A stretch of 64,000 nucleotides of DNA from a virus. The stretch covers positions 32,001-96,000 of IMG/VR virus record IMGVR_UViG_3300020401_000014. One strand, written 5' to 3'. Position 1 is the first letter of the stretch; the number at the start of each line of letters is the position of its first letter. A program made the position numbers and the translations under genes. Below, one piece after another: positions 13,501 to 52,021 of the stretch. The notes under the pieces were generated by a model. It was not told where the DNA came from and searched no databases. It saw only the letters and a program-made list of their open reading frames with translations.

Positions 13501-16500
13501 CCGGGCATGGACACGGCGTCACCGGAAAAATTCGAATGAACAGTTCCTTTATGGTAATATTCGTCATCATCCTCTGCCACGTTAAAGTTTTGCAGTGCAA
13601 GTGCGTCGCGTAGTGATTCAGAAGACACCAAATTTATTGCTTCTGTAGGAAAAGTATAATTCCTTATAATTTCAACAGGTCTTGCACCCTGCCAATCTCT
13701 TCGATTAAAATAATGCGATACTCCGTCAGGACTAAATAAATTTGTGTGACCATCCGTACCAAAAGTAAAACTGGGATTTGTGACCGTGGCGTCCAATGGA
13801 ATTGGAAAAATTGTTAGGTGTGCATGTTGAGTTGTGTTCCAATTGTATGCGCTATAGAATCTTCTTGCTGGCCAAGAAACGCGCGTAGAATCATAAAAAG
13901 TATGTTGTGTATTTGAGACAACCACAGGATCTTGCGCCTCACCACCTTCTTCAACATCTTGATTTAGCCAGGCTCCAGTTCCTACTACCCAAGAATCTAC
14001 ATCTGCAGGTGTTTTATTATTTGCTTTGCTGGTTTTTGTATAACCCGTTCCGTCGGCAGCGTTAGCATCTTCATAGTGATATTGCATTGCAATAAGTAAT
14101 TCGATTTTTGGGTCTGCGCCACTTGAAAAAGTTTCTTGCACGTAAAAATCAGAATACTGCATTCTCCAGAGCTTGAATGCTGCATCAAAAAATATTAAAA
14201 TTTTTCCGTAAGCTGTATCTTTTTCGCTAACCCAAATTCCATAACCTTCTGAACGAGCGTCGGAATTAAATGGATGATTATACCATTGATTTAAATCATT
14301 AAACGCAGTAGCCATTCTGTATGTTCCGTTTACTTCTTGTCGCTCACAGTTTTCAATATTAACTGCACCAAAAAAATCTGGAGAAATTTGTATAAGGTGT
14401 TTCGCAGGAGTGCTAGACGCATAAGAAATCCCAGTATTACCAAAGGTTTTTAAAAACTCAAAATCTCTCTTAACAGAAGCGGGCGTTGGATCTTCTCCGT
14501 GAATTGATGGGTCGTATTCTCCTCCGTGATTTATTCCCTCATCTATAATGTGTTGCACCAATTCGTAAACCGTTAAATAACCCCTGGCAGTATAATAAGC
14601 TTCGCCAGCAGTATCTGACGCTCTATTTAAAATAAGGCGGTACACAGCATCGACCGTCGCATCTGAATTTACACCACTAAACCATGGAACATGAAAAACG
14701 CTGGTTGGACTATAAATCCCAAATTGATTAACTTCTATTCCGTTATGAGTTGTAACATCTGACTCTAAAGGTGCGCTGGTTATAAAAGATCCGTCTAGAG
14801 GATTAAAAAAATTGTAGATGCTATTATCTTTTCCTGCAATTTTACTTTCTCCACTTAAAATATCTGACTTATTTTGCAAATTAGATGAATCCACGGTGCC
14901 TTTTTCTGAATAAACCAAACCCCATGCGTCATTTGAATAAACGTATGGATCTGGACTCAATCGCAAATTACCAAAAGAGTCAAAATTTTGAATATCAATT
15001 TCAGAATTTAAGTTTAAATTTCCTTCGCTTGATAAATCAGAATCATCAAAACCTTGAATTTCAAATGCTGGACAAGCACAGACCGAACCTAATGCCTTAA
15101 CTTGCCCGCTAGAGTTGATATAAAAAGTAGAATATTTGTTGGTTGATGCCCAGGTTACATCTTCATCAGTTAATTTAGTTGCCCTAGGAACATAGGTTCT
15201 AGCAGGAATTACACTTTTAATATTACCAGATAAACCATCTTGCCACCTTTCTCCCCCTGCCAAATTTGATATTTCTAAAGATTTTGAAAATCTAGGATAA
15301 TTACCAAAAGTAATATTCGATTCGCTTACTAATTTGTAAAGTCCAAGAACATTATCTTTAGAGTCGTCAGACCCTTCTGGATATTCTCCTGAAACAAAAT
15401 CAAAAACAACATGATCAGGACAGCCAATAATTGGATCCCAAAAAGGTTTGCCCTGAACGTACAAAGTTTCTTTGGGCATGATTTGATTATTCGGATCTTC
15501 GTTGCTGTAAATTAAATTAGTATTGTAAAAACTTCTAAAATTTGTTGTTGTTCCAAAAGAGTCAAGAGACGAAGCCCCAATTAAGTCTCCTATTTTAAAT
15601 CTTGAAAGTGAAGTCGCTGGAGTTTGACTTGCGGGATTTATAATAGAAGATGAAAAATTAGGATGATTTTGATTTAATGCGTCCTCGCTAACCAATATTC
15701 CGTTCCACCCTATTGATGGCTCGGAACCTCCAAATGATAAATCAACAGTAGACACCTTATCTGATAAAAATTTAAATTGCGCAGCGTTGCTTTTTATTGT
15801 TTCTATATACTCAGATTTATCAGAAGTTTTATTATTTAATCTTTTAAAATTTTCAAAAATTGATACTTCTTGATAAGCATCAATATCGCCGATAACCATT
15901 TGATTTGAATCTGTAGGTGCATATTTTTGATCAATATTGAATGCGTGCAAACCTCCAGTTTGCCAAAACTCTGAAGGTTTGTAAGGTGGGGCATAAGCGC
16001 TGACAGTAGACATTACTCCTGATTGAGCTATCCATGATTTTGAAGAATTATATTGATCAGTAAAACTCCAATTTAAATTACTTATATATCCATTATAAGG
16101 ATTACTTATTTGACTGCTATTAATTACAGAGTGGCAGATTAATTCATATTCTGCAGGCAAAGACTTATAAAACCCAAAATTTTTAAAATATTTCCAAGCC
16201 ATTAATACCTTAGATTGATCATCTGCAAAAACACCCCTTTCATCTCCCAAATTATAATCACTACCTGTGGCCTGTAGTTTTAAATAATATTCTGCGTCAA
16301 AATGCAAAAAAGCTTCCATCATATCTTGAGTGGCCTCGCTAGATTTTTCTTGCAAACTTAAAGATGATGCTCTCTGGCCAATGCCAAAGTTGTCGTTAGC
16401 ATCTGCGCACAAACCCAAGGAATATCCTTGGTTATGACCAAATCCATACAATTTATTGTTAAATATAAATACTGTGTTTCCGCCTTCTGAATCAACCATT

Positions 16501-19500
16501 GTTACCCCCGACACAGAGGCCTCCTCAGTTGCATTTGAGTAATCAAAGTCGCCGTCGTTTTCTTCAAAGATTTTAACTTCTTGATTGCTGATCTGATCAA
16601 ATGGATACATTTTGTTATACGCAACACTTTCATCGCCATATTCATCTAGATCTATTTTTAGATCAGAAGTATCTTCAAGCAGCCCAATAAACCCAAACTC
16701 ACTACTATCTAAGCCAGACGCATACAATTTATTATTATTTATAATAAACCTATTCTTACAGAACATTGATGCTCCAGAACTTGCAAACTTTGAGCTGGTT
16801 TTTTCGGACTGATTTAGACCTTCAAACGGAATCTCGCTTACTGCGGTGGGGTCAGGATTATTTACTTTAACCTTAAAAGATATTACTCCAGAAGAAACCA
16901 ATCCCTCTCCTATGGAATTTATAGAATAGCCAGAAATTAAAGATGGATGCGAGTCTGTTATTTCAGGTTCATCAACAATGTTTTGCAATAATGTAGATTC
17001 TGTATTACCAAAAACACTTATGCAAATAGTTTTTTCTGATTCGCTAAATTGTCCATCATTTTGATATTCAAAATTTAATTGTATTTTTTCATCGTAATTA
17101 TATATTTTTGAGATATTATCATTTGTTCTAATTAGAACATCATCATCTCCATGCATTCCGGCGAGTAAACTGACCTTTCTAGGATTATGACCACCGTCGC
17201 CAGGCTGTAGATCTTTTTGGCACACAAAAAACACGATATCTCCTCCATGATCTGGTTCTCCCGAATAATTCGAAACTAAATTAAAAACAAGCAGCAAATC
17301 AGGCTCGGCTTGAACCGAGCCTTCTGTATGACATTCATATATTTTATTATCAAAAACAATTTTTTCACCAATTTTATAGGATTTTCTTTTTGATAATGAT
17401 GGATAAAATTCGTTAGGCCCACTATACTCACTGGGTCCATATTTTTGTATATTAGATTGCGAGATACCCTCTTCTTCATCAATCAATTCAAGAATTTCTT
17501 GGTATATGTAAATGTAATCCCCAGCACTATAATGAGAGCTTTCGTGATAATGTTGAACGATTGACCACTCGGGAGGCTCTAAAGCAGGGTTTAAGTTGTT
17601 GTTTAATTCTTTTGATATATAAATTTTATTTTGATAAGTCACTATATCTCCCTTAGAATAAACTTCGGACGGAGACCACTCAAGATTTAATAAATCACCA
17701 GTTTGAGAATCGGATCCAGGACCGTCAACATCCTTCCATTTAGGAGAACTTCTAAACAAATCTGAATGGTCGGAGATTTGGTCATAAAAATTATTTAGTT
17801 TTTTAAATCTAGAAAGAAGAGTATCTTTAGTAGATATTTCTGTATAAACTTGACTATATTCACCTTGTAGGTCTACTTGGCTATCTCCGCCCACAAATAT
17901 ATTTGAGTTAGAAAATAAATTTAAATCCACACCACTATTTATAATTGACCCTTCAGAAGAAAAGGGCGGAACATCGTCCGGCGCGGTAATAGGCTCGTTA
18001 TAGTCAGTGTTTTTGTCGTATTTTACAAATCCTGAATCTCCTGAACTAAGTTCAGCTGCAAAAATTACACCATCTTCTGTTTCATTATTATTTTGAAAAT
18101 TATTAGTAGGATTATTATGAGAAAGCAATCTATAATGATTTACTGCTCTATTAGGAGTATTTTTAAATAATTCTGTTTTCCCCGCGGATAATTCATAATA
18201 ATTACCACCATATTCCACAATACTGTACCTACTATATTCCCCATCTTCTGACCAGGTAACAGCATTTGCTGCAAAAGATGTTGTATCCTGATTACCAGAT
18301 GTCGCCTCGCTCATAGTGAAAAACGGTATTCTCAATCCGTCTGCATCCACTGGCGGATTACTAATAGACAAATTAGTAAATAACAAATCAAAAGAAATAC
18401 TTTTTTGATAATCTTCTCTCGGGGATCTAAGATATTCTCCTATTACATTTCCACTGGAAATTGAATTTAAAATTGCAGAATAACTGGTGATTAAAGTTCC
18501 ATTTTCTTCTTCTAGCTCAGGAGTAATTTCTAAAGATTCATCTTTTGATATTTCAATTGTTTCTCCATTATATTGCCGATCTGCTTGACCGACCTGATTT
18601 CCGCTTTCATCAAGAACTGTATATTTAAATTTTACAGTTGGATTATATTTTTCAAATAATTTTTGTAAATTAAATTTATCTGACAACTTTTCATCCACAA
18701 TAGAAGGGTTTCCTGACGCAAAATCTCTAGTAAAATCTACGTCAAAATTAGAATCCAGCCACGACTTAAAGTACTCTACTGCAGGATGTGCATTGTTAGA
18801 CACCAGAGGGTGATTTGCGGTCAAGCCTTTTCCGGTCACCCAGTTTACTCCAAATTCTGCTTGGGAAATGTAGGGGTGGTAAATTGAAGTCACCCTTAAA
18901 TTTTCAAGATTAAGCTCGGGGTTTGAATCGCTAATGTCCAAAGCATTTATCATGCTTGACGTAATATTTTTTACATTCGAACTCCAATAAAACGCTTCGC
19001 CTCTTACATCAAACGTTTTAACTTCGTCTGAATAAACTTTTATTTGTGATGAAAGCACGGTTTGATCTGTTTGTTCATAAACACCATCATTTAAGTAAAG
19101 ATAATCAAAAGACCTCGGGGACACAAAGTAAGTATTAGATTGATTATCTGACCCATATAATTTTTTTAATTCTCCTGTTCTTTTGGCGATAGGCTGCCAC
19201 CATTTTGTTCTAATTAATGAATGTACCGTGGAGCTTGTGCTGTAATTAGCAGGCCCGGATAACTCTAGATTAATGTTATAATTATAAACAGCTTTTTGTG
19301 ATTCTGTTTTTATGATTGTATCAAAATCAATTACTGGATCTTCTAAATCATAACCTGATGGAACCTCCTCAACCAAGCAAAACATCTTAATTTTTACGAA
19401 AAAGTCGTCGCCCATTTTTACTGCATCACCAATTTCGTAATAATTTTCAAAAGCAAGGTCGTAAGAACAATTTCCAGATCCATAAACATCTTTTTTATTT

Positions 19501-22500
19501 ATAGAGTTTCCATCAATTCCGTAGTAATCAATATTAGTATGGCCTGTATCCAATTGGCCTTGATTAAATTCTGCTTGAGTAATTTGTTTCCAAATTGTTT
19601 GAGATATAATATTTTGATTTATTAATTGATCAAACCTTTGGTTTGATTCCTGAACATTGGACACAAATTTATAATTTTTCGAACCTACGCTCGAATCTAT
19701 GTAGCCAGGAATTATTCCTGCGTAATCTTCAGGATTTTCGAGGTCTACATCAGAAGTATTTTTAAGGCATTTATAAACATGCACTGGCGTTTCAGCCTCA
19801 GCCGTAGAAAACAATAAAGACAACTCTTGCTCACTGTAACCAGATTGTTCTTCTAAGCCAAAAGTCCTAATCCATTCTTCATAAGTTTTATAAGTTCCAT
19901 CTGGCGACAAAACTTTAACTGGCCCAGAAGTTACAACAACCAGATCTCCAGGCGAATAATTACCTCCTTGAACCCATGACGGTAAGTTTGTTTCTGTATT
20001 GTTTTCTGCAATTTTATTGATGATTCCTTCTTCTGATACTGCCCGTTTCCAACCAAACCCAAGCGTCACGGCGCTTCTGCCGGATGTAGGCCAACTATTA
20101 GAATTGGCTAAAACTCTAAATGAGGTATATGTTGTAATTGAGGTTACTGAGGTGTTTATCCAAGCTAAATTATCATCTACCAAAACCAGCTTTGACCATA
20201 AACCAGGGTGTTCTAAAGGGTTTTTATCTTGGCTTGCTTTTTTCGCTCTAAAAAAATGATAAGCTTGTTTCGGCGAGAATCCAGCATTTTGTTTAATACA
20301 TTTGTAGTAAACCTTACTTGCACCCTCCCAACAGTAAATAATATCATCTATACTGTAATTTTGATCATGAAACCAAGGGTTTGTGCTTGATGTTGTTGTT
20401 TTTTCCCAATAATCTCCAGAAGAAAGCTTTACAATGGTTTGCGTTTTATATTCTTTAGAATCACTCCAGCTTATTGCTGCGTCTTCTAGTTTAATCGCGC
20501 CAGAACTTGCGCCAGTTTGTTTTCCGTGAGCGCTACCAACAACTAATTTAAATAAATCGCTCTGTTGCTGGGCAAAAGTTTCTCCAAGATCTAACCAGAG
20601 ATTATTTGTCATTGTGCCATGGTCTTCTAATTCAGAAAATTCTTCTTTAAGCTCGTCTGCGTTTATGCCGGGAAATCCAGTCTGCATAAGTCCTACAATC
20701 CTTTTAAATTTTGAAGATGATAGCGCGTCTGTTCTGAGAAGAATTGGGCGATACGCTCTATCTATAACTCTAGTTTCATCCTCATATACTAAACCAGCAT
20801 TTGCTTGCTGATCTGTTGGATTTAATGCGTTACCTAGAATCAAATAGTGAAGCGGCTGAGCCTGCGTTGTATCTGCAGCAACACTTTGGGTATTGATCAT
20901 TTGAGTAATATTCCCGTCGGTAATCGGATTATAACTATAATTTCTTGGTTCAGGGGGCTGACCATATTGCTGGAAAGGCCAACCAGAACCATGCAATCCA
21001 TTAAGAGGGTTGCCGTTAGAAAAAAGCTGCGGCGTAACCATTTCAATTCTTTGCCTAGAGAGCAGGTCTTCAATCATCAATACATATTTGCCAAGCAAAT
21101 GACTACCCTTATTTCCACCAGGATGCACGCCCCCTCTTCTTCTTGCATGAACATAGCCACGAGACATATAATAACAAGGAATTAAATTATCATACGTATA
21201 ATGAACAAGATCTCCAGTTGCATTTTCAATACTCACATTAGAAGGTGAAAAACTGTCGACATTTAAATATGAATTTATTTTATTATTGTCTATAGAATGG
21301 GTAGCAAAAGTAGATACGCCAGATATTGATAAAAATTTTATGCTAGTAGTTCTTCCGAATGTTACCGCTAACCTTGGTTGGCCTCCATGGTCTTTTCTTA
21401 AGTTTTTCGTATATATTAAAATATCATATTGTCCATCTTGAAAAGGTCCAGAAGAATTATTTGCCCCAGAATACCAAGGCCGACATTTACTTGAATGATA
21501 AAGATTTAATTTATTTCCCCATTTAGCCATTAAGTGCCCATATATATTTGATCCGCCACCAAAATCATTCATTCTTATTCTTGCTTTTGTTGGAATTATT
21601 GATTCGTTAGCAAGATTCTTGGAAACAGAACTAGAGTCTACTTGAAATCCTCTATGTGTCGCCTGCTTATTAACCAAATAGTCATATATAGAGCTTAATG
21701 AAGAATTAGGTCGATTAGTTGATGATGCATAATCTCTCCAAAAACTAGATGCATTATTCCATGGTATTTTGTCAAAATCATAATTTCCAGAAGCATCTCT
21801 TGCAGGAGTCTCAGTATTTTTTATACAAACTGCCAGTCTTGGGTGTTCGGTAGAATCAAAAGATTCATCCCAATTTGAAGGTATACTTGTGGTATCAATT
21901 TGTCCACTTACAATTGGCTGAAAATAGTTTACAAAATCTCCAACAGAATAAACCTCTGAAGAATTAAAAACTTGCGCGTCGATATTTGGGTCTGTAGGGC
22001 TATTTGTTGCGTCAATAATGTTAGTGTTTGCACCCAAATGTGCATTTAAAGATGTAGACGCAAATCCAAATTCTTTACTAGGCAAGGGTGTTTTTCCTAC
22101 GCCCGAAATAGCGAACTCTGGATAATTAACAGCTAATCTATCAAATCCAATGCCATCATCTAAATTAGGGCTTGGTTTTTTGGTTCTTACCACTCCGCCT
22201 CCCATAGAAGCACCTCCCGTAGGCCTTAAGGCTATAGCTGCTCCATTTTTATCACGCGGCAAAAAAGTTGCATTACAAACAATAAAAGGCATGTTAATAA
22301 ACTCAAACAAATTTAAGCATATTTCGTTTTCATTTACAGCATTACCAGAACCATTAATAAAATCATTCCTAGAAACCAATCTGACCCCTGTATGGTGAGT
22401 GATATTTAATTCCTCCATCGACTTCCATGAACTCGAAGAAGGTGGGTTAAAATCGCCAGCATTATTACCATCAACACAAACATATAAGTTTGTTGAGCTT

Positions 22501-22730
22501 GGTGTCGGCCTTTCTTCTCTTGACAAAAGATCCAGATCGTCACTATAGTAAATTGCAATGTGCCCGACTTGATACTGTGCCCCTAGACGAAACCTAGCGT
22601 ACCACATTGGCAGAGCGCCCGGTAAAGCCGCCCTGTGGGCGCCAAATATATTTCTATTAGATATTCCGGCAAAGGCGGGTTCTGCAGACAAAAAGTCTAA
22701 ATTAAAATCAATATGTACTCCGCCGCCCAT
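4578..22730 (-). CDS. giant 6050-aa virion/adhesin-like protein with CBM5/12-like, RCC1/BLIP-II-like and DUF4214-like modules
   Basis: Uninterrupted 18-kb ORF; about 15 W...Y..GD.V.Y....Y.C/S modules, about 5 'FI...GKVYG.G.N' RCC1-like blades, one VDAVYRLILNRASDTAGEAYY segment. Confidence 0.85.
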   Translation of the reverse strand: MGGGVHIDFNLDFLSAEPAFAGISNRNIFGAHRAALPGALPMWYARFRLGAQYQVGHIAIYYSDDLDLLSREERPTPSSTNLYVCVDGNNAGDFNPPSSSSWKSMEELNITHHTGVRLVSRNDFINGSGNAVNENEICLNLFEFINMPFIVCNATFLPRDKNGAAIALRPTGGASMGGGVVRTKKPSPNLDDGIGFDRLAVNYPEFAISGVGKTPLPSKEFGFASTSLNAHLGANTNIIDATNSPTDPNIDAQVFNSSEVYSVGDFVNYFQPIVSGQIDTTSIPSNWDESFDSTEHPRLAVCIKNTETPARDASGNYDFDKIPWNNASSFWRDYASSTNRPNSSLSSIYDYLVNKQATHRGFQVDSSSVSKNLANESIIPTKARIRMNDFGGGSNIYGHLMAKWGNKLNLYHSSKCRPWYSGANNSSGPFQDGQYDILIYTKNLRKDHGGQPRLAVTFGRTTSIKFLSISGVSTFATHSIDNNKINSYLNVDSFSPSNVSIENATGDLVHYTYDNLIPCYYMSRGYVHARRRGGVHPGGNKGSHLLGKYVLMIEDLLSRQRIEMVTPQLFSNGNPLNGLHGSGWPFQQYGQPPEPRNYSYNPITDGNITQMINTQSVAADTTQAQPLHYLILGNALNPTDQQANAGLVYEDETRVIDRAYRPILLRTDALSSSKFKRIVGLMQTGFPGINADELKEEFSELEDHGTMTNNLWLDLGETFAQQQSDLFKLVVGSAHGKQTGASSGAIKLEDAAISWSDSKEYKTQTIVKLSSGDYWEKTTTSSTNPWFHDQNYSIDDIIYCWEGASKVYYKCIKQNAGFSPKQAYHFFRAKKASQDKNPLEHPGLWSKLVLVDDNLAWINTSVTSITTYTSFRVLANSNSWPTSGRSAVTLGFGWKRAVSEEGIINKIAENNTETNLPSWVQGGNYSPGDLVVVTSGPVKVLSPDGTYKTYEEWIRTFGLEEQSGYSEQELSLLFSTAEAETPVHVYKCLKNTSDVDLENPEDYAGIIPGYIDSSVGSKNYKFVSNVQESNQRFDQLINQNIISQTIWKQITQAEFNQGQLDTGHTNIDYYGIDGNSINKKDVYGSGNCSYDLAFENYYEIGDAVKMGDDFFVKIKMFCLVEEVPSGYDLEDPVIDFDTIIKTESQKAVYNYNINLELSGPANYSTSSTVHSLIRTKWWQPIAKRTGELKKLYGSDNQSNTYFVSPRSFDYLYLNDGVYEQTDQTVLSSQIKVYSDEVKTFDVRGEAFYWSSNVKNITSSMINALDISDSNPELNLENLRVTSIYHPYISQAEFGVNWVTGKGLTANHPLVSNNAHPAVEYFKSWLDSNFDVDFTRDFASGNPSIVDEKLSDKFNLQKLFEKYNPTVKFKYTVLDESGNQVGQADRQYNGETIEISKDESLEITPELEEENGTLITSYSAILNSISSGNVIGEYLRSPREDYQKSISFDLLFTNLSISNPPVDADGLRIPFFTMSEATSGNQDTTSFAANAVTWSEDGEYSRYSIVEYGGNYYELSAGKTELFKNTPNRAVNHYRLLSHNNPTNNFQNNNETEDGVIFAAELSSGDSGFVKYDKNTDYNEPITAPDDVPPFSSEGSIINSGVDLNLFSNSNIFVGGDSQVDLQGEYSQVYTEISTKDTLLSRFKKLNNFYDQISDHSDLFRSSPKWKDVDGPGSDSQTGDLLNLEWSPSEVYSKGDIVTYQNKIYISKELNNNLNPALEPPEWSIVQHYHESSHYSAGDYIYIYQEILELIDEEEGISQSNIQKYGPSEYSGPNEFYPSLSKRKSYKIGEKIVFDNKIYECHTEGSVQAEPDLLLVFNLVSNYSGEPDHGGDIVFFVCQKDLQPGDGGHNPRKVSLLAGMHGDDDVLIRTNDNISKIYNYDEKIQLNFEYQNDGQFSESEKTICISVFGNTESTLLQNIVDEPEITDSHPSLISGYSINSIGEGLVSSGVISFKVKVNNPDPTAVSEIPFEGLNQSEKTSSKFASSGASMFCKNRFIINNNKLYASGLDSSEFGFIGLLEDTSDLKIDLDEYGDESVAYNKMYPFDQISNQEVKIFEENDGDFDYSNATEEASVSGVTMVDSEGGNTVFIFNNKLYGFGHNQGYSLGLCADANDNFGIGQRASSLSLQEKSSEATQDMMEAFLHFDAEYYLKLQATGSDYNLGDERGVFADDQSKVLMAWKYFKNFGFYKSLPAEYELICHSVINSSQISNPYNGYISNLNWSFTDQYNSSKSWIAQSGVMSTVSAYAPPYKPSEFWQTGGLHAFNIDQKYAPTDSNQMVIGDIDAYQEVSIFENFKRLNNKTSDKSEYIETIKSNAAQFKFLSDKVSTVDLSFGGSEPSIGWNGILVSEDALNQNHPNFSSSIINPASQTPATSLSRFKIGDLIGASSLDSFGTTTNFRSFYNTNLIYSNEDPNNQIMPKETLYVQGKPFWDPIIGCPDHVVFDFVSGEYPEGSDDSKDNVLGLYKLVSESNITFGNYPRFSKSLEISNLAGGERWQDGLSGNIKSVIPARTYVPRATKLTDEDVTWASTNKYSTFYINSSGQVKALGSVCACPAFEIQGFDDSDLSSEGNLNLNSEIDIQNFDSFGNLRLSPDPYVYSNDAWGLVYSEKGTVDSSNLQNKSDILSGESKIAGKDNSIYNFFNPLDGSFITSAPLESDVTTHNGIEVNQFGIYSPTSVFHVPWFSGVNSDATVDAVYRLILNRASDTAGEAYYTARGYLTVYELVQHIIDEGINHGGEYDPSIHGEDPTPASVKRDFEFLKTFGNTGISYASSTPAKHLIQISPDFFGAVNIENCERQEVNGTYRMATAFNDLNQWYNHPFNSDARSEGYGIWVSEKDTAYGKILIFFDAAFKLWRMQYSDFYVQETFSSGADPKIELLIAMQYHYEDANAADGTGYTKTSKANNKTPADVDSWVVGTGAWLNQDVEEGGEAQDPVVVSNTQHTFYDSTRVSWPARRFYSAYNWNTTQHAHLTIFPIPLDATVTNPSFTFGTDGHTNLFSPDGVSHYFNRRDWQGARPVEIIRNYTFPTEAINLVSSESLRDALALQNFNVAEDDDEYYHKGTVHSNFSGDAVSMPGEHLIVDDSFEIVGALDNDGSKQIDVNTVVDITIPTGDQAGNTRTWIPAHWGDKFNIKNDSNSNLPAWPGYRTEGGIIYGNGGWNYIPEDVDFVTEFSGNNIASGALGHYRGGAVREAFSMLSPFDTVPTGSRDSLDVWRYNLNVEAESITFKVKFTKKPGNFNSTGVAFGFYIFQDAGYKPLYMTDVDALFSTWPLTHKYPGDPLFLDFSRSAFMYGFSSIGAYLSDDTPGFGGIETPGFAGFPGAGSLPIIYNGNPLEIGLVDNFVGDGYNTVSASGAMLPTGTADFHFQDDSQRKTVPDVYVQNGEFVTLGGTRFYYFNPNFAPSSGRDFMHDNKFDADARQYAFLQRFFRWDNYIYEAYDDNGTFTFSGPNRDLIINSSGLTGSRPENFSADQWGIASDHILNRDENRIIGFGVQGYGAAITLYNASLIDGFPSAPGAELTSDAQFERHDAFHVNSHFGSGSSHNFGSYADFDENGELEMEITLLFNDTLNYSASNSIPPQGFFVVPVAEHLDTVSEIDLNLLNEEYEITASVTPFVEVFDEPMFLSSCTTLHVVTQDPVTNAPLTQVQAAEKNITPQSFSLESGGVSQYYSSITGLDASPFDYEISETYIQSDFTERFLSAGFPKKSWVNYFLGELTDWNFYFDNQPGLESQLSAQYPGVPLALLGLYDWNSQMFWNQRVEKSQYLQAGGSQRIKSSASYYRGIDSMRHNADWFYDDIFGWTTKSNGTHEPPSNLKQYSDSEWYFTTKYNCWFEVKSDQKTRRDNGSSFDVFLLNYGFNLIQHSPGSIPYNNDGLVSFDSFGEVLVGEIQIDQTYNQLDSYVYNNGDVVKIELAESEKLYRTLYFVSLKDNNTEEVGFIGSLSQVDEKKIKVPAPKGITKRYSITKQNTSSDSNLDGSLVVYDPSEYGGDKAKSVELGDSHALILTESGKVFGVGDNSFKQIDKKFTRNDNFNGLIQDDLYGRSVNNDILYLECIQNNAQSPFDQKSHWKQIPKPVWPVNAWKQSSTYSVGDKVFVRNETFFSILYLPQGNTNVKVTDKVIGSKWLDLGFWTEMEATFENSNRYAMSSEVVCARTIGEMFEREWAPGYSSSPPFDNSFYNVIIFAGKKDLIHHTKGMKSQHRYSYGDSFFITDRCYLNPHQIFNFESVSAVQNVRISAIDASGKGSIFLDSSNNLYGIGNNEISCSKKGEYLSDNPLGTVFGFRSEFLEGPSFIADGVTFMSKVGDCVSFISGGKSYRAGGVGLNPYFENYQELGAPALILDNDGTEIKAKTVFVESVDFWDKEDWFMERFLSQKFKNKFYLKGEKYKEMSESRISLNSRVGQYTSHTYNTPEINSFIEPYDSAKNYQAHIKSGQIYDAETETYIQTERPELSSGRDSAIKFNALPSAFESTVPSLVTYENKIYKCIQNNGADNFSNEVNSLFMKNRRCRNWQSSFTEDNMVFIPGQAGSELYWEEVSDLQNKNIIQTIVEKLNLFSFSSMIYVDSNNKLNIRGYNFGYTSGTGGVMSGLKDNSALIANERGSELGVRSPESQNIIRKHAGVKAFNYDLTNAVRLQNPFHVSSLYLDLQQGFVRDWVHPDPVGVEFNQTISGGRSLNCVDFLGFNRARGRYLFAFENSSQAFVGQTWSGGYDYNEGEYVFDEGQVYRAKVEIAGEAFNSQSPADDTNRWEQLTGTLRQTEIEAATNMDIGDYSNLNFVSQNTVYGSLNFADFQLLANNWKPHVSSHAPTGRILDRELSNSSSFGRKNTLFNGELYYSWPVLDPFAPSFMQGLGAKYATPLTQRFVIGHYTPANYAGIDRLDIGLIDFSSNPYGHKTGLESLRDNVYSWLNFEHSTEYPALIPAALRTPVKGLLSWWDLVKDVSKKLKYSKNIDTSIQDHQAFSEFTFMENYYGVENSNTFPLSDKTHFEAKPHISESAAPWQNRDNTQYYNPWSESNNFIQYAAKQENWSVFTSLTTYDMKNFDNIYGGNVNSNMLAGFLNDSQILNPSNFEDSIWDEWFSSQINEDDFSGLTDAFKELTIFDLNSHDKFLLGSYMLDPASLPFGESIPRWGYGFESDKIVSKSEYNIGERVFHKGFCFVSTVNSNSLEPVVSNSRDAGIDENGWNAIEPEELHRFRSQIGTAHQVTSAKLNSNSIVDGDPYLRQEYIPQQTIGHSQIDFSFARKSDLTNFHKIKDFDLFDRAEWNKANQNNETPADLMPHETHPIVEAENTRAEPLSAQAKNIKGIDYPFWYAVKSQAQSAAYNSYFDNYWSNFQGYSGFSQQKFHYMHSLGRFYHVLGYYDEYHTNATGDSGYERKSKSEIPAGDNTQPDDSPVFWIFNFRVPTNIPNYIQNYEYTFANGTKISVNPRFAVRTSAQIQAMKNQIDANGVESILDESGNVLTDPEEIANNIPIEIFYHVRDMVQTSPTLQAVKNVKYKFPKPAFPNPFGQVTDYMEAVSEMHNFGFSNFTKGSDASTDIWGREINQDFYCSPKFSTDYYNQLKENYYIDRSPTGISNVYCENTMTESNISTWKNDSAISLYSIDASGDLSFTKQDDIIQVPNGAFYLPNRNKMHVESTGLLLTKEEKDHSQILYKYTNSAGNLVVSAVLYGPELYYRGGEFRSNFEFVKGKVYLVLGGLYVCLQSWDVVSMHGNNDVRFPFLGKNDYMEFLGDIYANSVSIQSEDVYSQSADGKLALVSDKKFNYFEDFAHAIRNRRHLRFELRKIWSMETNVNNQSMNYIDSGTTYRHQGFINPSDTSSDKYAYVLEGGFAGIAMSDYFDIFKDTYSNKINKSYTDSESHNTTSLATTFQVGLHHKHHQISKDQAKLLAEKHIINLAKKREGLDYVWYDARKCKWIAGRNWLQESVAGEYSSEDLARSAAQNAGLSDNDLFEWGVECYPDIYKNDDGSVNRSMDKWIEHDVIYIGGKKHHQCLARIHGVIEKWKSEIDNKFPGILKVKNGGLALALLGSMINIKDWHNTNIEIDIAQ

Positions 22731-42323: not shown

Positions 42324-42548
42324 TTAGATGTTTGCTGATTGAAAAGATGCTTCTATTCTACGCTCATCTCGCAAACTTGTCAAGTCTGAAATGATGTCAT
42401 CTAAGACTTCATCGAATGACTGAAAAGTACTGCCGAGCGGAAACTTGTCGGGGTGGCGTTCGTGTTGGTCAAGGCAAACCTTGGACATTGGATCTGCCCA
42501 AGCAAGATTTCCCTTAACGATTTGGATTACTAATTCTGCTTCTGTCAT
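42324..42548 (-). CDS. hypothetical protein
   Basis: TTGACA-17-TAGTAT-6-ATG. Confidence 0.75.
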   Translation of the reverse strand: MTEAELVIQIVKGNLAWADPMSKVCLDQHERHPDKFPLGSTFQSFDEVLDDIISDLTSLRDERRIEASFQSANI

Positions 42549-42782
42549 GGTATAATACTAAGCTAGTTTGAAATATATGTCAACCACTAAATCCAAGAAA
42601 ATGAACGATTGCGATATATATAAAGATGATTAATGCTGCTAGTGCGAATGTTTGTTGGTATGTCATGGTAAATTGGTAGGATTTTTTTGACAAATCAGGA
42701 ATCCCATAAACCTGTTAATTAGCTAGTTTGGATTTTCTACTTACTAATTTCAGCTACTCATCCGCTATACTAAAGTGTGAAC

Positions 42783-42858
42783 CTCTTTCTCTCTCCCGAA
42801 GGTTGTAGGCGTGTGCTGACGCCTCGTTGTTCAATGCTTTCGCATCTACAGAAAGAGC
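42783..42858 (-). ncRNA. structured multibranch RNA directly 3' of the tRNA-like element
   Basis: 8-bp CTCTTTCT/AGAAAGAG stem enclosing ATGC-GAAA-GCAT, AGGCGT-CAGCAC-ACGCCT and CC-TTCG-GG hairpins. Confidence 0.45.
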
Positions 42859-42991
42859 AGTCCCCTGCAGGATTCGAACCTGCGTTTCCTACATCCTCAT
42901 CGGATTACTCCTTACCAATGATCAGTTGGCTACAGACTAACTAGTATCCTGTTGTGGAGTGGCGTCCTAGGCCGTACTAGACGAAGGGGAC
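42859..42991 (-). tRNA. tRNA-like RNA (Glu-type scaffold) with a ~60-nt expanded anticodon arm
   Basis: Perfect 7-bp acceptor GTCCCCT/AGGGGAC, D arm GTCTAGTACGGCCTAGGAC, T arm GCAGG-TTCGAAT-CCTGC; 133 nt; no encoded CCA. Confidence 0.8.
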
Positions 42992-43073
42992 ACAAATTGA
43001 AATTGATTATCAAAAGAACTATATATCATTATGACAGAAAAACGCTCCGTGTCAACACTTTTTTTTCGTTACC

Positions 43074-43209
43074 TAAATCGTTGGCGCAGAAGAAAATAGG
43101 AAAAATATATAAAACCTTTAAAAAAACTTTCGTAAGTCGTTGGCGCAGAAGAAAATACAACAAATCTCAGTGGGCGATTTTCCATAAGTTGTTGATAATC
43201 AACTACCTT
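43074..43209. repeat. palindrome doublet 9 plus a degenerate third site
   Basis: Sites at 43074, 43133 and 43185 (43133 to 43185 = 52). Confidence 0.7.
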
Positions 43210-43383
43210 GGTCGCCGCCTCAAGTTAAAATAAATTCATAAGTATAATATTTGTCACTTTATTATTTACAATTATATAATTCACAATATTTATATTTGTC
43301 TTATTTACCATTCCTGTATTGCTAATTTAATTCCTGCTATTGCTCCTATTGCTAGTATTAATAATATCTCCATATAATATATG

Positions 43384-43995
43384 TTATGTTGTTTTGGAAT
43401 ACTGTTTCCATATCTCTAGGTCAAGATCGGTAACTGACTTACCAAGTATGCGAGCAATGTTTTTAAAGATGTTTGCAAAATAGAAGTATGTATTCTCGTT
43501 TTGTGGCGTGCTTTTGGGTGCATCCTTGTAACCCTGATCCCTAAGGAAACTAAGTATATGAGTATCGAGCATCGGCTCGTCGAAATCCTCACGAGAGTGA
43601 GAAAGAAAAAATCTTGCGGTTTTTAGCCCAATACCACGAACCTGAAGAAGGCGTGCCAAGGATACTGTGCGCAGGTCTCCAAGCTTGAGAACATCGCAAT
43701 AACTGTTGTAGCGTTGCTTGTATGGACTGATTGCTGCCCAATGCATGATCTCCATCAGGCGATTGTCGCCATCAAGACGATTGCCATGCCAAGTGCGTCG
43801 CATATGTTTAAGCTTGTTCATGCCATCAAACGGAGCGTTGTGCCCTGTAATGTTTTGAACTCGCTCTAGAAATACTTCTAGCTTCGGAGCTTCTACTGCA
43901 GACTTCTTGCCCGCGACATTAATACAAAACAATAAAAACTCTTGTAGTTCTGATTGTGTGCGATTATAATTTGTTACTTCTGCTGGATTTATCAT
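43384..43995 (-). CDS. HhH DNA glycosylase-like protein (OGG/AP-lyase-like)
   Basis: LLQVRGIGLKTARFFL HhH motif and LDTHIL. Confidence 0.75.
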   Translation of the reverse strand: MINPAEVTNYNRTQSELQEFLLFCINVAGKKSAVEAPKLEVFLERVQNITGHNAPFDGMNKLKHMRRTWHGNRLDGDNRLMEIMHWAAISPYKQRYNSYCDVLKLGDLRTVSLARLLQVRGIGLKTARFFLSHSREDFDEPMLDTHILSFLRDQGYKDAPKSTPQNENTYFYFANIFKNIARILGKSVTDLDLEIWKQYSKTT

Positions 43996-44754: not shown

Positions 44755-44846
44755 AAGACCAAAGGCTTTTATTGAGTTACCTTTGAAGCGATGATAGTAA
44801 CTAGAGGCAACACACAACCTCCGCATATTTGCTCAGAAAAAATAGA

Positions 44847-45031
44847 TGTGGGGGAGGACTACTGAATACCTCCAACTTTTCGGCGTGAACATCAGTTCAG
44901 GATTACCTACTTCGAACCACAGATTAGACTTGGCATTCGTCATCGACTCATCCGATTGGACTCTATCGCCCCGCCACAGGGAATCTGCGTACTTTAGCCC
45001 GCTCACGACAGGTTTAGTTCAGTCACCCACA
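44847..45031 (-). ncRNA. 6S (SsrS)-like RNA
   Basis: 185-nt GC-rich rod: TGTGGG/CCCACA, ACTGAA/TTCAGT, CGTGAGC/GTTCACG, 11/27-nt central bubble, CGCAGATT/AATCTGTG; alternative TGAAC/GTTCA hairpin as in 6S. Confidence 0.6.
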
Positions 45032-45125
45032 GGAAGGATTATAAGCCCTTCCAAAGTGTTTAAAATGTTAAAGATCAATTTATTTTATTTATTTGAGTTT
45101 GGTTCTCAATTTTGATTATGTAATA

Positions 45126-49735: not shown

Positions 49736-52021
49736 TCATGCCTCTTCCCCTTGCTTATCACACATAGAAATATAATCAATGATATTCTTGCCGAAGTTGT
49801 CTTCGTTGTAATTGATCCATCCGTAAACTTTTGAACATATATTCGCAAGTAATGGGTACTTGTCGTCAATGTCTTTGCAGAGGTAATCGAAACTCTTCCA
49901 TTTATATTTAGAAGAGAAATTCTTGTCGAACCACTCCTTGTCTTCTTCTTGCACCAACTTTTTAAGTTTAAACAATGTGCTGATAACAAGGTCATCGTTT
50001 TGAGAATCCGCTAGAATTTGCATAGCTTGTAGAATATCGTTGTCTTTGTCAAAAGTCTTATGCAGTATGCTTCTGAAGCTTGTATTGCCCAAAATATTCT
50101 CTAGCTTCTTTACATTGTTCATTTCATGCCTATGCTCTTGATATGCCATTCTACGCTCTCCACGCAAGAGATCGGCTTTTCTGCGAAGCAATGCACCCTT
50201 GGCTACTTTGATGCGATGATCTTGCCATTCAATCCATTTAGATTTGTCAAGCTTTTTTACATCTGACTTACGGATGCCATAGACTTCAACCTTGCGGTCA
50301 TCATCAAGGTTCTTGAACAAGGCTTGTAAACCTTTGTAGTCACGCTTCAATGAATCTAATTCATATCCAATTCTACCGCATGGTTTATAATTACTAATAG
50401 CAATATATACAAGATAGGAGTCATCGTCTAAATCTTTCTCAAGGTCTTCGACTTCTGATCCATTTCTCCATTGATCTGAATTTCTGTATCCACAAGGATC
50501 ATATAGAAAAGTTGGTACAGATGCACGACTTTCGCCACTTGCTCTTGTGCCTTGCTTGAGTTTTGCTTTCTCAACATTGCTAGTATAATACAAGTTGTCC
50601 TTAGATACAAGATTGAGTTGCCAACCATCTTCATCACCGAACATATATTGGCTACCAACATCAGTATAAGATACCACATATACACCCACAATAGAGTCAT
50701 CACTATTGAACATAGTTCTTGCTCGTAGAGCATTACCATGCGAAGATGCAATGTCTTGCAAGATGAGTCGGTTGTTCTTGTGAACATCCACTCTGCTTAC
50801 TTTTTGACTTCTTACTTTATATCCATCGGTAACATCTTTGTCTTCGACTTTAGTATATTCAGTAATAGTAATATCTTCATTGTACTGATAGTTTCTATGA
50901 AAGGTTGCACCCAAAATTGGAATACCTTTCCATTTAAAACTATTTTGAAAAATGCTTCGTAGTTCGTATGGCAAAGCATTAATAACTTGTGCATACTTTG
51001 CTTTCGCATCCCATAGGCAAGTTGCTCCACCAAGTTTTTCCTTGGCAATCTCTTGAATGTCATCGTACATTTTCCTAAGATGTTGAACAATAGCTTTTTG
51101 CGTAGCTTTGTTATATTCCAAAGACTCACGACTATGATGCAATTTTAGTTCGCCAATGTCGAATCTAAGATATACATTATCTTCATCACATATATTCTTT
51201 AGAGGAGCATAATCGTAACCTTCTTCTACATAATTTTTGAAATCAATAGAATTGGTATTGATAGGATAATGCACTCTGCCCATGAAAGCATGAGATTGAG
51301 AATGGCTTCTTCTCCAATAGTCTTGCTTGTCATCAATGATAAACCAAGACTTGTCCTTGGCTTCAAGCACAACATCGTACTTGTCAAAAAATTGTTCGTC
51401 ATCACCAATGCCAATGAATTTGGGCATTTCTTCTTCGCTGAAGAAGCGGAAGAATGCTTTGACAATTTCTCTGAACTTGTCTACATCTTCATCTGCAATG
51501 GCAACTTCTACCGACAAACCACTTGGTTCGTTGCTAGGTTCTTTGTGCATCTCTACAATCTTGGTATCGTCATCTTCATTGACAAATATATTGTAAGAAG
51601 ATTTAGTTCCACCATGATACGAAACGCAAGTAAAATTGTTTCCATAAGACAATGGAGCAAATTTACCGATACCGAAAGCACCAATATATGAATTGGAATT
51701 ACGCTTGGTACTTTTGCCGTACTTTGAGTATAAACCGAATACATCTTCTTTGCTCAAACCACTACCAAAGTCACGAACGCAAAAGTTTGGATTAAACTTA
51801 GATGGCAAAGTAATCTCGACTTTGCGAGTAGCATTTGCTTCTTTGTTTGCATCCAATGCGTTTGCACTAATCTCACGCACAACTGCGAGAGGTGGATTGG
51901 AATAGTTGTTGCGAAGAAGAGAAGCGACATAACGCATATCTTCGGCATCAATGGTACAATTTACGGAATCGAAATCGTGAGACGATACGACTCGTTTGGA
52001 TTTTTCTTGTGTGATAATCAT
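49736..52021 (-). CDS. rIIA: rIIA-like protein with N-terminal GHKL ATPase
   Basis: VREISANALDA, VRDFGSGL, STKR.SN..IGAFGIGKFAPLSY. Confidence 0.85.
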   Translation of the reverse strand: MIITQEKSKRVVSSHDFDSVNCTIDAEDMRYVASLLRNNYSNPPLAVVREISANALDANKEANATRKVEITLPSKFNPNFCVRDFGSGLSKEDVFGLYSKYGKSTKRNSNSYIGAFGIGKFAPLSYGNNFTCVSYHGGTKSSYNIFVNEDDDTKIVEMHKEPSNEPSGLSVEVAIADEDVDKFREIVKAFFRFFSEEEMPKFIGIGDDEQFFDKYDVVLEAKDKSWFIIDDKQDYWRRSHSQSHAFMGRVHYPINTNSIDFKNYVEEGYDYAPLKNICDEDNVYLRFDIGELKLHHSRESLEYNKATQKAIVQHLRKMYDDIQEIAKEKLGGATCLWDAKAKYAQVINALPYELRSIFQNSFKWKGIPILGATFHRNYQYNEDITITEYTKVEDKDVTDGYKVRSQKVSRVDVHKNNRLILQDIASSHGNALRARTMFNSDDSIVGVYVVSYTDVGSQYMFGDEDGWQLNLVSKDNLYYTSNVEKAKLKQGTRASGESRASVPTFLYDPCGYRNSDQWRNGSEVEDLEKDLDDDSYLVYIAISNYKPCGRIGYELDSLKRDYKGLQALFKNLDDDRKVEVYGIRKSDVKKLDKSKWIEWQDHRIKVAKGALLRRKADLLRGERRMAYQEHRHEMNNVKKLENILGNTSFRSILHKTFDKDNDILQAMQILADSQNDDLVISTLFKLKKLVQEEDKEWFDKNFSSKYKWKSFDYLCKDIDDKYPLLANICSKVYGWINYNEDNFGKNIIDYISMCDKQGEEA

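What the first reader, a model, noticed from the sequence alone, without database searches (positions are those of the whole stretch)
42859..42991. tRNA scaffold carrying a ~60-nt structured insert in the anticodon arm
Seen: acceptor, D and T arms are canonical and resemble bacterial tRNA-Glu, but the molecule is 133 nt. The anticodon region can fold as an extended bulged helix (CC/GG, AC/GT, TCC/GGA, GGAT/ATCC, ACT/AGT) tipped by GCCAA-CTGATCA-TTGGT, a 7-nt anticodon-like loop reading GAU. I could not restore a canonical anticodon arm by removing one intron at the usual positions. It has its own promoter (TTGACA at 43050-43055, CATAAT at 43028-43033). Inference: a non-canonical intron, or a tRNA mimic stabilised by normal end processing, for example a decoy for anticodon nucleases or a ligand for synthetases or the ribosome.
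Basis: partly seen in the sequence, partly recalled or inferred. Interest (0 to 1): 0.75.

Follow-up and report, generated by a model that had tools for sequence, protein, structure and literature searches.

The report
Non-decoding tRNA-shaped marine phage RNA
An uncultured marine phage makes, from its own promoter, a tRNA-shaped RNA whose anticodon loop is replaced by two hairpins with self-complementary tips and which is joined to a second, very conserved folded RNA; it belongs to a large family (about 100 variants, one copy per phage genome) that is in no RNA catalogue and whose job is still unknown.

Summary
The 133-nt element (42859-42991, minus strand) is real and functional-looking, but it is not a lone oddity. 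It is one member of a large, uncatalogued RNA family of uncultured marine phages, and this scan had already noted the family on other DNA.

Every member has the same parts:
- a sigma-70-type promoter and a conserved ~30-nt leader;
- a tRNA cloverleaf whose stems covary freely;
- in place of the anticodon loop, an extended stem ending in a three-way junction with two hairpins;
- directly after the discriminator, a ~78-nt four-way-junction domain with invariant junction bases.

The two hairpin loops carry 6-nt palindromes (ACUAGU-type and UGAUCA-type). These change between phages yet stay palindromic, including through G-U intermediates. That pattern points to loop-loop self-pairing between molecules.

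The rest of the proposed bulged helix is not conserved.

No single excision restores a normal anticodon loop across the family, so an ordinary intron is unlikely. A pseudogene is excluded.

Best reading: a non-decoding tRNA-shaped scaffold, cut out by tRNA-processing enzymes, that displays self-associating loops. Its function is unknown, and I found no Rfam family or paper for it.

The parts
43028..43055 (-). Promoter: -35 TTGACA (43055-43050), 16-nt spacer, TG-extended -10 CATAAT (43033-43028)
   Evidence: Consensus scan gives 11 of 12 matches. The promoter is kept in near-identical strains while the sequence upstream diverges. Equivalent promoters stand before family members in other phages.
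42992..43021 (-). ~30-nt 5' leader, conserved across the family, ending in U at -1 before G1
   Evidence: Unique in the window. Nearly the same leader precedes different tRNA bodies in L059, L062, L064, L068 and L078. The transcription start is inferred from the -10 box and is not mapped.
42859..42991 (-). tRNA-shaped RNA. Acceptor 42991-42985 with 42866-42860; D arm 42982-42964; T arm 42883-42867; variable loop 42887-42884; discriminator U 42859.
   Evidence: Model R2 hit at 55.8 bits, E about 3e-12. All six helices covary in 18 relatives on a MAFFT alignment: 94.6% of cells paired, 24 pairs with changes on both sides, 0 of 500 shuffles as high. In this lineage U2-A71 changes to C2-G71.
42907..42962 (-). 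Anticodon stem without an anticodon loop: CC (42962-42961) pairs with GG (42889-42888), then 42960-42956 pairs with 42911-42907. It ends in a three-way junction with joining bases 42955-42953, 42931 and 42913-42912.
   Evidence: Helix 3: 6 of 6 pairs show changes on both sides. The CC/GG pair and the longer inner helix are kept in L119, L127, L163 and L206.
42932..42952 (-). Hairpin H1: 4-bp stem and a 13-nt loop holding the palindrome ACUAGU (42945-42940)
   Evidence: The stem covaries (helix 4). In relatives the loop hexamer is ACUAGU, UCUAGA, CCUAGG, ACAUGU, GCUAGU or UCUAGG: 47 of 50 type-A sequences are palindromic if G-U is allowed.
42914..42930 (-). Hairpin H2: 5-bp stem and a 7-nt anticodon-loop-like loop (42925-42919) holding the palindrome UGAUCA
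   Evidence: The stem covaries (helix 5). In this lineage C-G changes to U-A and G-U to A-U. In relatives the loop core is GAUC, AGCU or CAUG, always a palindrome.
42890..42906 (-). 17-nt insertion in the 3' strand of the anticodon stem, specific to this lineage; in this copy it can form a small hairpin
   Evidence: Absent from most of the family. It is 13 nt with a different sequence in L151, L196, L206, L119 and L163. It is rearranged in L049 and in the X15 contig.
42781..42858 (-). Conserved 3' domain, a four-way junction. P1 is 42857-42850 with 42790-42783. It has three hairpins capped by GNRA- or UNCG-type loops and invariant joining strands.
   Evidence: Model R1 hit at 113.8 bits. P1 and P2 covary: 98.6% of cells paired, 8 pairs with changes on both sides, 0 of 500 shuffles as high. 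P3 and P4 stems are invariant while their loops vary in length and sequence. It has the same position, starting 1-3 nt after the discriminator, in all ~100 members.

Best explanation
The element is the tRNA-shaped half of a two-part, non-coding and non-decoding RNA. That RNA belongs to a large, so far uncatalogued family in ~180-kb uncultured marine phages, with one copy per genome, in the early region, under a strong sigma-70-type promoter.

Shown:
- The cloverleaf shape, the extended anticodon stem, the two hairpins and the 3' four-way junction are all maintained by compensatory changes.
- Their sequences drift, apart from the loop palindromes and the junction bases of the 3' domain.

Inferred:
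1. The tRNA shape serves recognition by shape-reading enzymes: RNase P at G1, a 3' endonuclease such as RNase Z after the discriminator, and perhaps the CCA-adding enzyme. This would give the RNA defined ends and stability, and would separate it from, or position it against, the 3' domain.
2. The two loops, each carrying a hexamer that stays self-complementary while it changes, pair with the same loops of a second molecule (kissing loops). The RNA would then act as a dimer or a higher oligomer.
3. It does not read codons.

The biological role is unknown. Candidates include titration or scaffolding of a host or phage factor that binds tRNA-shaped RNA.
For: Family and copy number:
- 17 and 27 IMG/VR loci and 120 or more marine metagenome loci carry the unit, giving about 96 distinct tRNA-shaped bodies.
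- The model finds one copy in each of five large contigs, including a 100%-complete 180-kb genome.

Structure:
- Covariation supports all six helices of the tRNA-shaped part and P1/P2 of the 3' domain.
- The window copy is a full-length model hit.
- Strains 95-100% identical to the window vary only in the D-loop, at T-loop purine-57, in hairpin loops, by compensatory pairs, or in the lineage-specific insertion. Flanks outside promoter-to-domain diverge.

Non-decoding:
- There is no 7-nt loop on the anticodon stem.
- No excision restores U33 and purine-37 family-wide.
- Acceptor stems and discriminators are not those of one amino-acid identity.

Self-pairing loops:
- The H1 hexamer occurs as three different Watson-Crick palindromes at the outer pair (A..U, U..A, C..G), with G..U and U..G intermediates, and one inner double change (CUAG to CAUG).
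- Counted as pairs, 97% of cells pair, 4 of 6 pairs change on both sides, and 0 of 500 shuffles are as high.
- In the type-B sub-family two copies of the same hexamer pair with each other within one molecule.
- G-U but not A-C states fit RNA of this strand.

Processing model: in 7 relatives the 3' domain is bracketed by a second tRNA-shaped module, a 64-nt tmRNA-like domain.
Against: - No experiment or read-level RNA data: expression, ends, CCA addition, dimerisation and cleavage are all unobserved. The RNA-library contigs that cover the locus are unspliced and may derive from DNA.
- The palindrome covariation rests on few independent changes: about 8 hexamer types, with 3 of 50 sequences non-palindromic.
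- A palindrome can also be a DNA site for a dimeric protein.
- Six-base kissing contacts are weak on their own.
- One sub-family (L061, L058, L091, L109, L132, L179) has a 4-bp helix flanked by two 3-nt bulges at the position of a canonical 37/38 intron. Excision there would leave an Arg(CCU)-like loop, so splicing in some members cannot be excluded.
- The host is unknown, so the processing enzymes are assumed.
Confidence: 0.6

Rival explanations
1. It is a precursor tRNA with an unconventional intron. The two-hairpin module, possibly after dimerisation or with help from the 3' domain or a phage enzyme, is cut out and the halves are joined, giving a working (perhaps regulated) tRNA.
For: - ARAGORN with the intron option can always propose a tRNA.
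- Several bodies look like ordinary tRNAs of different types.
- The L061/L132/L109 sub-family has bulge-helix-bulge-like geometry at position 37/38 that would leave a CUCCUUA loop.
- Predicted introns in phage tRNAs have a precedent in Lak megaphages (PMC6784885).
Against: - No split restores U33 in more than 41% of members, against more than 99% in real tRNAs.
- Some members have no spare loop bases (L072 type).
- The window copy has a continuous helix with no 3' bulge.
- ARAGORN's anticodon for the same sequence changes with the flanks supplied.
- One copy per genome with ever-changing tRNA identity is not how a decoding need behaves.
- No intron-less allele was found.
- Bacteria are not known to have a bulge-helix-bulge endonuclease (own knowledge).
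Confidence: 0.13
2. The tRNA-shaped part is only punctuation. It exists so that RNase P and RNase Z release the conserved 3' domain, which is the real effector (an aptamer, a protein sponge or a new self-cleaving ribozyme). The inserts merely stop the scaffold from entering translation.
For: - The 3' domain is by far the most conserved part, with invariant junction bases over all members, while tRNA bodies are exchanged freely.
- In 7 relatives the domain is bracketed by two tRNA-shaped modules.
- RNA-library contigs show the identical 84-nt domain behind a different T arm.
- HDV-like theta ribozymes directly after phage tRNAs are a precedent for position (PMC10879173).
Against: - It does not explain why the insert keeps two hairpins with conserved loop flanks and covarying palindromes.
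- The domain does not thread as an HDV-like double pseudoknot, and no Rfam ribozyme or riboswitch matches at E up to 10.
- This reading overlaps with the best explanation rather than excluding it.
Confidence: 0.15
3. It is a decoy for a host tRNA-directed defence or tRNA-binding factor (an anticodon nuclease, a synthetase or the ribosome). H2 would imitate an anticodon stem-loop.
For: - H2 in the window is a 5-bp stem with a 7-nt loop and U at the position of U33.
- The tRNA elbow is preserved.
- It is an early gene under a strong promoter.
Against: - The H2 loop varies to 5-nt AGCU-type and CAUG-type loops that are not anticodon-loop-like. What is kept is palindromy.
- The distance from acceptor end to loop is far longer than in a tRNA.
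- Acceptor identity is not kept.
- No defence gene or host is known for these phages.
Confidence: 0.07
4. It is a decayed tRNA gene (pseudogene), or the palindromes act as DNA sites (recombination, replication or operator sites) rather than in RNA.
For: - No standard tRNA call.
- Palindromic hexamers are typical sites of dimeric DNA-binding proteins.
- tRNA genes are common integration sites (own knowledge).
Against: - Compensatory changes keep every helix.
- The promoter and one copy per genome are conserved over about 100 variants.
- G-U intermediates occur in stems and palindromes on the transcribed strand only.
- The palindrome sequence itself changes between phages, which a fixed protein site would not tolerate.
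Confidence: 0.05

Closest known systems
Phage T4 species 1 and 2 RNAs (rnaC, rnaD): small stable RNAs of unknown function at the end of the T4 tRNA cluster
   Same: Both are phage-encoded stable non-coding RNAs linked to tRNA genes. rnaC carries a tRNA-type T arm near its 3' end and gives a weak hit to the family model (16.5 bits). Function is unknown in both.
   Different: In rnaC I saw no full cloverleaf, no two-hairpin module with palindromic loops and no counterpart of the 3' four-way-junction domain. The sequences are unrelated.
Predicted tRNA introns of Lak megaphages (Devoto et al. 2019, PMC6784885)
   Same: Both are phage tRNA-like genes that are too long, are missed by bacterial tRNA settings, and carry conserved inserted sequence in the anticodon region.
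   Different: The Lak cases were defined by alleles with and without the insert and restore a normal tRNA. Here no insert-free allele was found and excision does not restore a normal loop. The Lak cases are not described with a conserved 3' domain.
Theta (HDV-like) ribozymes next to phage tRNAs (Kienbeck et al. 2024, PMC10879173)
   Same: Both are a compact conserved RNA fold that starts within a few nucleotides of a phage tRNA end. A possible role in 3'-end formation applies to both.
   Different: Theta ribozymes are ~50-60-nt nested double pseudoknots. This domain is a 78-nt four-way junction that I could not thread as HDV-like and that no Rfam model matches. Self-cleavage is untested.
phi29 prohead (packaging) RNA
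   Same: From own knowledge of the pRNA literature: a single-copy, early-promoter phage RNA built around a three-way junction whose two loops make intermolecular loop-loop contacts to form an oligomer. It also has a second 3' domain.
   Different: pRNA loops are complementary to each other (head-to-tail ring), not self-complementary. pRNA has no tRNA shape. There is no Rfam pRNA match in the window, the phage lineage is different, and a packaging role is untested here.
ROOL and GOLLD RNAs (Kretsch et al. 2025, PMC12286853)
   Same: Both are phage or prophage RNAs of unknown function found near or around tRNAs. They self-assemble through kissing loops whose intermolecular pairs covary. GOLLD has a conserved 3' region and a variable 5' region.
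   Different: ROOL and GOLLD are 500-800 nt or more and form cages, against about 210 nt here. There is no Rfam match to either, and assembly here is only inferred.

Membership tests
Uncatalogued marine-phage family 'tRNA-shaped RNA + conserved 3' domain' (defined here) | Full-length match to the covariance model of the tRNA-shaped part with its two-hairpin module | tested here: met
   R2 hit at 55.8 bits, E about 3e-12, exactly 42859-42991, the only hit in the window.
Uncatalogued marine-phage family 'tRNA-shaped RNA + conserved 3' domain' (defined here) | Conserved four-way-junction domain starting 1-3 nt after the discriminator | tested here: met
   R1 hit at 113.8 bits at 42781-42860. The window domain is identical to that of L061.
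Uncatalogued marine-phage family 'tRNA-shaped RNA + conserved 3' domain' (defined here) | Own sigma-70-type promoter plus conserved leader; single copy per genome | tested here: met
   The single copy was shown for five relatives; the window's whole genome is not held.
Uncatalogued marine-phage family 'tRNA-shaped RNA + conserved 3' domain' (defined here) | Self-complementary hexamers in both hairpin loops | tested here: met
   ACUAGU at 42945-42940 and UGAUCA at 42924-42919. Family statistics.
Canonical tRNA (Rfam RF00005) | Acceptor, D and T arms with conserved elbow bases | tested here: met
   The D-loop GG and the T-loop are kept in variants.
Canonical tRNA (Rfam RF00005) | 5-bp anticodon stem closed by a 7-nt loop with U33 and an anticodon | tested here: not met
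   The stem runs on into a three-way junction. There is no ARAGORN call and no Rfam tRNA match up to E 10.
Intron-containing tRNA (bulge-helix-bulge type) | 4-bp helix flanked by two 3-nt bulges; excision leaves a normal anticodon loop | tested here: not met
   The window copy has a continuous 5-bp inner helix without a 3' bulge. Family-wide restoration fails. Only the L061-type sub-family has such geometry.
Intron-containing tRNA (bulge-helix-bulge type) | Spliced product exists | tested here: inconclusive
   Only assembled contigs of RNA libraries could be laid. They cover the unspliced form and cannot show absence of a spliced one.
tRNA with group I intron | Self-splicing intron of about 200 nt or more with a group I core | tested here: not met
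   The extra sequence is about 60 nt, and there is no Rfam intron match.
tmRNA | tRNA-like domain formed by the two ends, G3-U70, and an internal tag reading frame | tested here: not met
   ARAGORN tmRNA search negative. Rfam matches only the 18-nt T arm (10.9 bits). Pair 3:70 is C-G.
HDV-like / theta ribozyme (for the 3' domain) | Nested double pseudoknot (P1, P1.1, P2, P3, P4) with cleavage at its 5' end | tested here: not met
   The covariation-supported fold is a four-way junction. Hand threading failed, and there is no Rfam HDV-family match. The position next to a tRNA end is shared.
HDV-like / theta ribozyme (for the 3' domain) | Self-cleavage activity | not testable with these tools
   Needs an in vitro transcription and cleavage assay.
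ROOL / GOLLD / phi29 pRNA (self-assembling phage RNAs) | Match to the family model | tested here: not met
   The Rfam gathering scan of the whole window returns only manA.
ROOL / GOLLD / phi29 pRNA (self-assembling phage RNAs) | Homo-oligomer held by loop-loop pairs | not testable with these tools
   Only indirect evidence: the palindromes covary.

The most novel reading that the evidence does not exclude
The RNA is a new class of self-assembling phage RNA. A tRNA-shaped handle displays two different self-complementary kissing loops, so that molecules join H1-to-H1 and H2-to-H2 into closed dimers, rings or chains. This would be a small marine counterpart of phi29 pRNA or the ROOL/GOLLD assemblies. 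The ultra-conserved 3' domain would be a new catalytic or ligand- or protein-binding core released or positioned by tRNA-processing enzymes.
Probability: 0.3. Interest if true: 0.85.

Novelty: new variant of a known kind. Interest (0 to 1): 0.7.

Why it matters
Phage tRNA-like stable RNAs have been known since T4 species 1 and 2 RNAs, yet none has a function.

This is a large natural series: about 100 sequence variants, one per genome, in abundant uncultured ocean phages. Evolution has marked what matters in it:
- the tRNA shape;
- two loops that must stay self-complementary;
- a 78-nt junction with invariant bases.

That makes several questions directly testable with short synthetic RNAs:
- Do small natural RNAs use programmable kissing loops to oligomerise?
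- Is the 3' domain a new ribozyme or aptamer?
- What do shape-only tRNA mimics do during infection?

It also matters for annotation. These genes are invisible to tRNA finders and to Rfam, or are mis-called as intron-bearing or suppressor tRNAs. Such mis-calls could feed false inferences of stop-codon recoding.

Tried and rejected
- **Exact 17-mer of the tip hairpin in IMG/VR:** six hits, all chance matches inside unrelated sequence.
- **Patterns for the window's own tRNA body, with or without a long insert, in IMG/VR:** none found. So there is no insert-free allele, and no copy of the window itself.
- **Synteny route:** 28 relatives were found through the upstream 203-aa gene. They lack the element at that locus by BLAST and ARAGORN. 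The unit sits elsewhere in such genomes: L089 lies on the same IMG/VR contig as L029, and L078 on the same contig as L022.
- **GenBank phages:** no DNA match. The DnaE-type polymerase of the complete relative is at most 34% identical to any isolate, so the host stays unknown.
- **Sequencing runs:** only assembled contigs could be laid. No joint (skipped stretch) was seen and no ends can be read. This says nothing about splicing or processing.
- **ARAGORN intron calls:** rejected as evidence because they are mutually inconsistent.
- **Hammerhead-like letters** in the lineage-specific insertion (a GAUGAG ... GAAAC run): rejected, because the stretch is not conserved even in 95%-identical strains and Rfam finds no hammerhead.
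- **HDV-like, hatchet, twister-sister or hairpin-ribozyme readings of the 3' domain:** none fits the covarying four-way junction, and there is no Rfam match.
- **Base pairing between the invariant junction strand of the 3' domain and the T-loop:** a 6-nt complementarity was noted, but neither side varies, so it cannot be tested.
- **Pairing of the H2 loop with the 3' tail of 16S rRNA:** 5 bp are possible, but the AGCU-type loops could not do it.
- **Fixed neighbouring protein gene:** none found among 33 loci.
- **Literature searches** for such an RNA: none found.

Full report
**What is at the coordinates.**
On the minus strand, 42991-42859 reads as a tRNA cloverleaf. It has a 7-bp acceptor stem, a D arm, a T arm with the standard T-loop, a 4-nt variable loop and discriminator U. 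About 60 extra bases sit where the anticodon loop should be.
- ARAGORN with default settings finds no tRNA or tmRNA anywhere in the window.
- Rfam at gathering thresholds finds only a manA RNA at 44843-45052.
- A permissive Rfam scan of 42500-43400 finds nothing but the 18-nt T arm.
- The single-sequence fold is not more stable than shuffles (z = -1.4), so the sequence alone cannot settle the fold.
- The window is phage DNA: rIIA-like, DNA ligase, UvdE, GP88 and DUF932 genes, and a 6050-aa ORF. No whole genome is held for it.

**Close relatives.**
Exact-protein look-ups of the two flanking genes found about 18 contigs from Tara and other ocean metagenomes. They carry the element at 94.8-100% identity. 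The alignment shows a sharply bounded conserved block, running from the -35 box to about 85 nt past the tRNA 3' end, inside diverged flanks.

Inside the block, changes fall in these places:
- the D-loop, with GG kept;
- T-loop position 57, G to A;
- hairpin loops;
- one G-U to A-U change;
- a 17-nt stretch that is rearranged.

A 93%-identical contig from an RNA library adds two clean compensatory changes, U2-A71 to C2-G71 and a C-G to U-A in the tip hairpin (the same states occur in L196). This pattern is purifying selection on a structured RNA, not decay.

**A family, not a singleton.**
The same run-laying showed the 84 nt just downstream (42864-42781) at 100% identity behind a different T arm. 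Searching that downstream sequence gave:
- 17 and then 27 IMG/VR loci;
- 4 contigs binned into marine or other MAGs.

Parsing gave about 96 distinct tRNA-shaped bodies of 95-200 nt. All stand immediately 5' of the same domain, most behind a similar promoter and leader. A covariance model of the domain finds exactly one copy in each of five large contigs, including a 180-kb contig rated 100% complete. That genome also has three ordinary tRNAs.

These phages have rIIA, a large terminase, ribonucleotide reductase, a DnaE-type polymerase and a Lon-like protease. They have no close cultured relative. The host is unknown.

**The fold.**
I used a MAFFT alignment of 18 'type A' members, not fitted to any structure. 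On it, the six-helix model is 94.6% paired. Its helices are acceptor, D, extended anticodon stem, H1, H2 and T. 24 of 32 pairs show changes on both sides, and no shuffle or slid register comes close.

In the window:
- CC (42962-42961) pairs with GG (42889-42888);
- 42960-42956 pairs with 42911-42907;
- H1 is 42952-42932 and H2 is 42930-42914.

The 17 nt at 42906-42890 are an insertion in the 3' strand of the stem. It is found only in this lineage, where it is 13-17 nt long and variable. The other four proposed pairings use this variable insertion and are not conserved.

**The 3' domain.**
A model built from five members recovers all the others. P1 and P2 covary strongly: 98.6% of cells paired and 8 pairs with double changes. 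P3 and P4 have invariant stems, but their loops vary in length and swap between UNCG- and GNRA-type caps. One member has a 36-nt insertion in P2. The roughly 21 joining bases are invariant.
- It is a four-way junction, not an HDV-like double pseudoknot.
- It matches no Rfam family.
- In seven relatives it is followed at once by a 64-nt tmRNA-like tRNA domain with G3-U70 and an encoded ACCA end. There, two tRNA-shaped modules bracket the domain. This suggests that tRNA-processing enzymes cut it out.

**Is it an intron?**
- For 75 members with a clear anticodon stem, I joined x bases from the 5' flank of the insert to 7-x bases from its 3' flank. No x gives U33 in more than 41%, or U33 plus purine-37 in more than 32%.
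- Members of the L072 type have the hairpins directly on the stem.
- ARAGORN's intron mode calls the same window sequence Pyl(CUA) or Pro(UGG) depending on the flanks supplied.
- No insert-free allele was found.
- One sub-family (L061, L058, L091, L109, L132, L179) does have a 4-bp helix flanked by 3-nt bulges at the canonical intron site. I therefore keep splicing as a minority rival.
- Lak megaphage tRNA introns are the published precedent.

**The loops.**
The H1 loop holds a hexamer that is ACUAGU in the window. Elsewhere it is UCUAGA, CCUAGG or ACAUGU, with GCUAGU and UCUAGG as G-U intermediates. 47 of 50 type-A sequences are palindromic. The H2 loop holds UGAUCA, or in other members AGCU- or CAUG-centred palindromes.

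Treated formally as pairs, these positions are 97% paired, 4 of 6 show double changes, and 0 of 500 shuffles reach this. Such pairs cannot form within one loop. In the type-B sub-family two copies of the hexamer pair in cis.

The simplest reading is loop-loop pairing between two molecules. The counts are small and the inference is indirect.

**What it is like.**
| Known RNA | Shared trait | Source |
|---|---|---|
| T4 rnaC/rnaD | tRNA-linked phage stable RNA of unknown function | |
| Theta ribozymes | A fold directly after a phage tRNA | |
| phi29 pRNA | Three-way junction with intermolecular loops | own knowledge |
| ROOL/GOLLD | Kissing-loop assemblies near phage tRNAs | |

The element is a member of none of these. 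Five literature searches found no description of it.

**Earlier notes of this scan.**
Other windows had already been read in the same way. One note pointed to the abutting 3' fold. Others described tRNA-shaped marine-phage RNAs with self-pairing loops and a conserved tail. I treated them as leads. The family, the folds, the palindromes and the intron test above were all re-derived here from the sequences.

**Verdict.**
- Of the interpretation, the mimic half is supported and the intron half is not.
- The element is a real, conserved, apparently undescribed phage RNA whose mechanism (shape-directed processing plus self-association) is inferred and whose function is open.

Noticed in passing
window 44843-45052 (minus): Full-length manA RNA (Rfam RF01745, 73.4 bits against a gathering score of 55.2). 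Another first-reader note on this window read the same stretch as a candidate 6S RNA.
   Followed up: partly
L130:1315-1378, L153, L105, L154, L171, L187, L080 (related marine loci): A 64-nt element that matches only the two ends of the Rfam tmRNA model (60 bits). It has an acceptor stem with G3-U70, a T arm and an encoded ACCA, and no mRNA-like part. It sits directly after the conserved 3' domain. It looks like a phage 'tmRNA tRNA-like domain only' gene. It is absent from the window.
   Followed up: partly
L131:1-160; G003 (L225) 157110-157473: Relatives of this phage clade carry tmRNA genes. One is the 3' part of a tmRNA (Rfam 75.6 bits) just upstream of the unit in L131. The other is an ARAGORN tmRNA call in the complete 180-kb relative.
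   Followed up: no
window 4578-22730 (minus): A single open reading frame of 6050 aa. The complete relative has ORFs of 3710 and 2270 aa.
   Followed up: no
window 43066-43160 (minus): Two direct copies of a ~24-nt motif lie just upstream of the promoter of the RNA gene. This is the region where near-identical strains diverge.
   Followed up: no
L227-L230 (GTDB genome contigs): The 3' domain occurs on contigs of MAGs labelled Rickettsiales (two), Halobacteriovorax and Enterobacterales. One contig is 16,249 nt long, the same length as a Tara phage contig found earlier. These are probably phage contigs binned into MAGs, and at most a weak host hint.
   Followed up: no
L078:11537-11656: In one member the P2 hairpin of the 3' domain carries a ~36-nt structured insertion, while all junction bases stay the same. 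P2 is therefore a tolerated expansion site.
   Followed up: no
window 49736-52021 (minus): The 761-aa protein with a GHKL ATPase domain corresponds to the rIIA-like protein of the complete relative. The weak Pfam LEF-8 match is probably spurious.
   Followed up: partly
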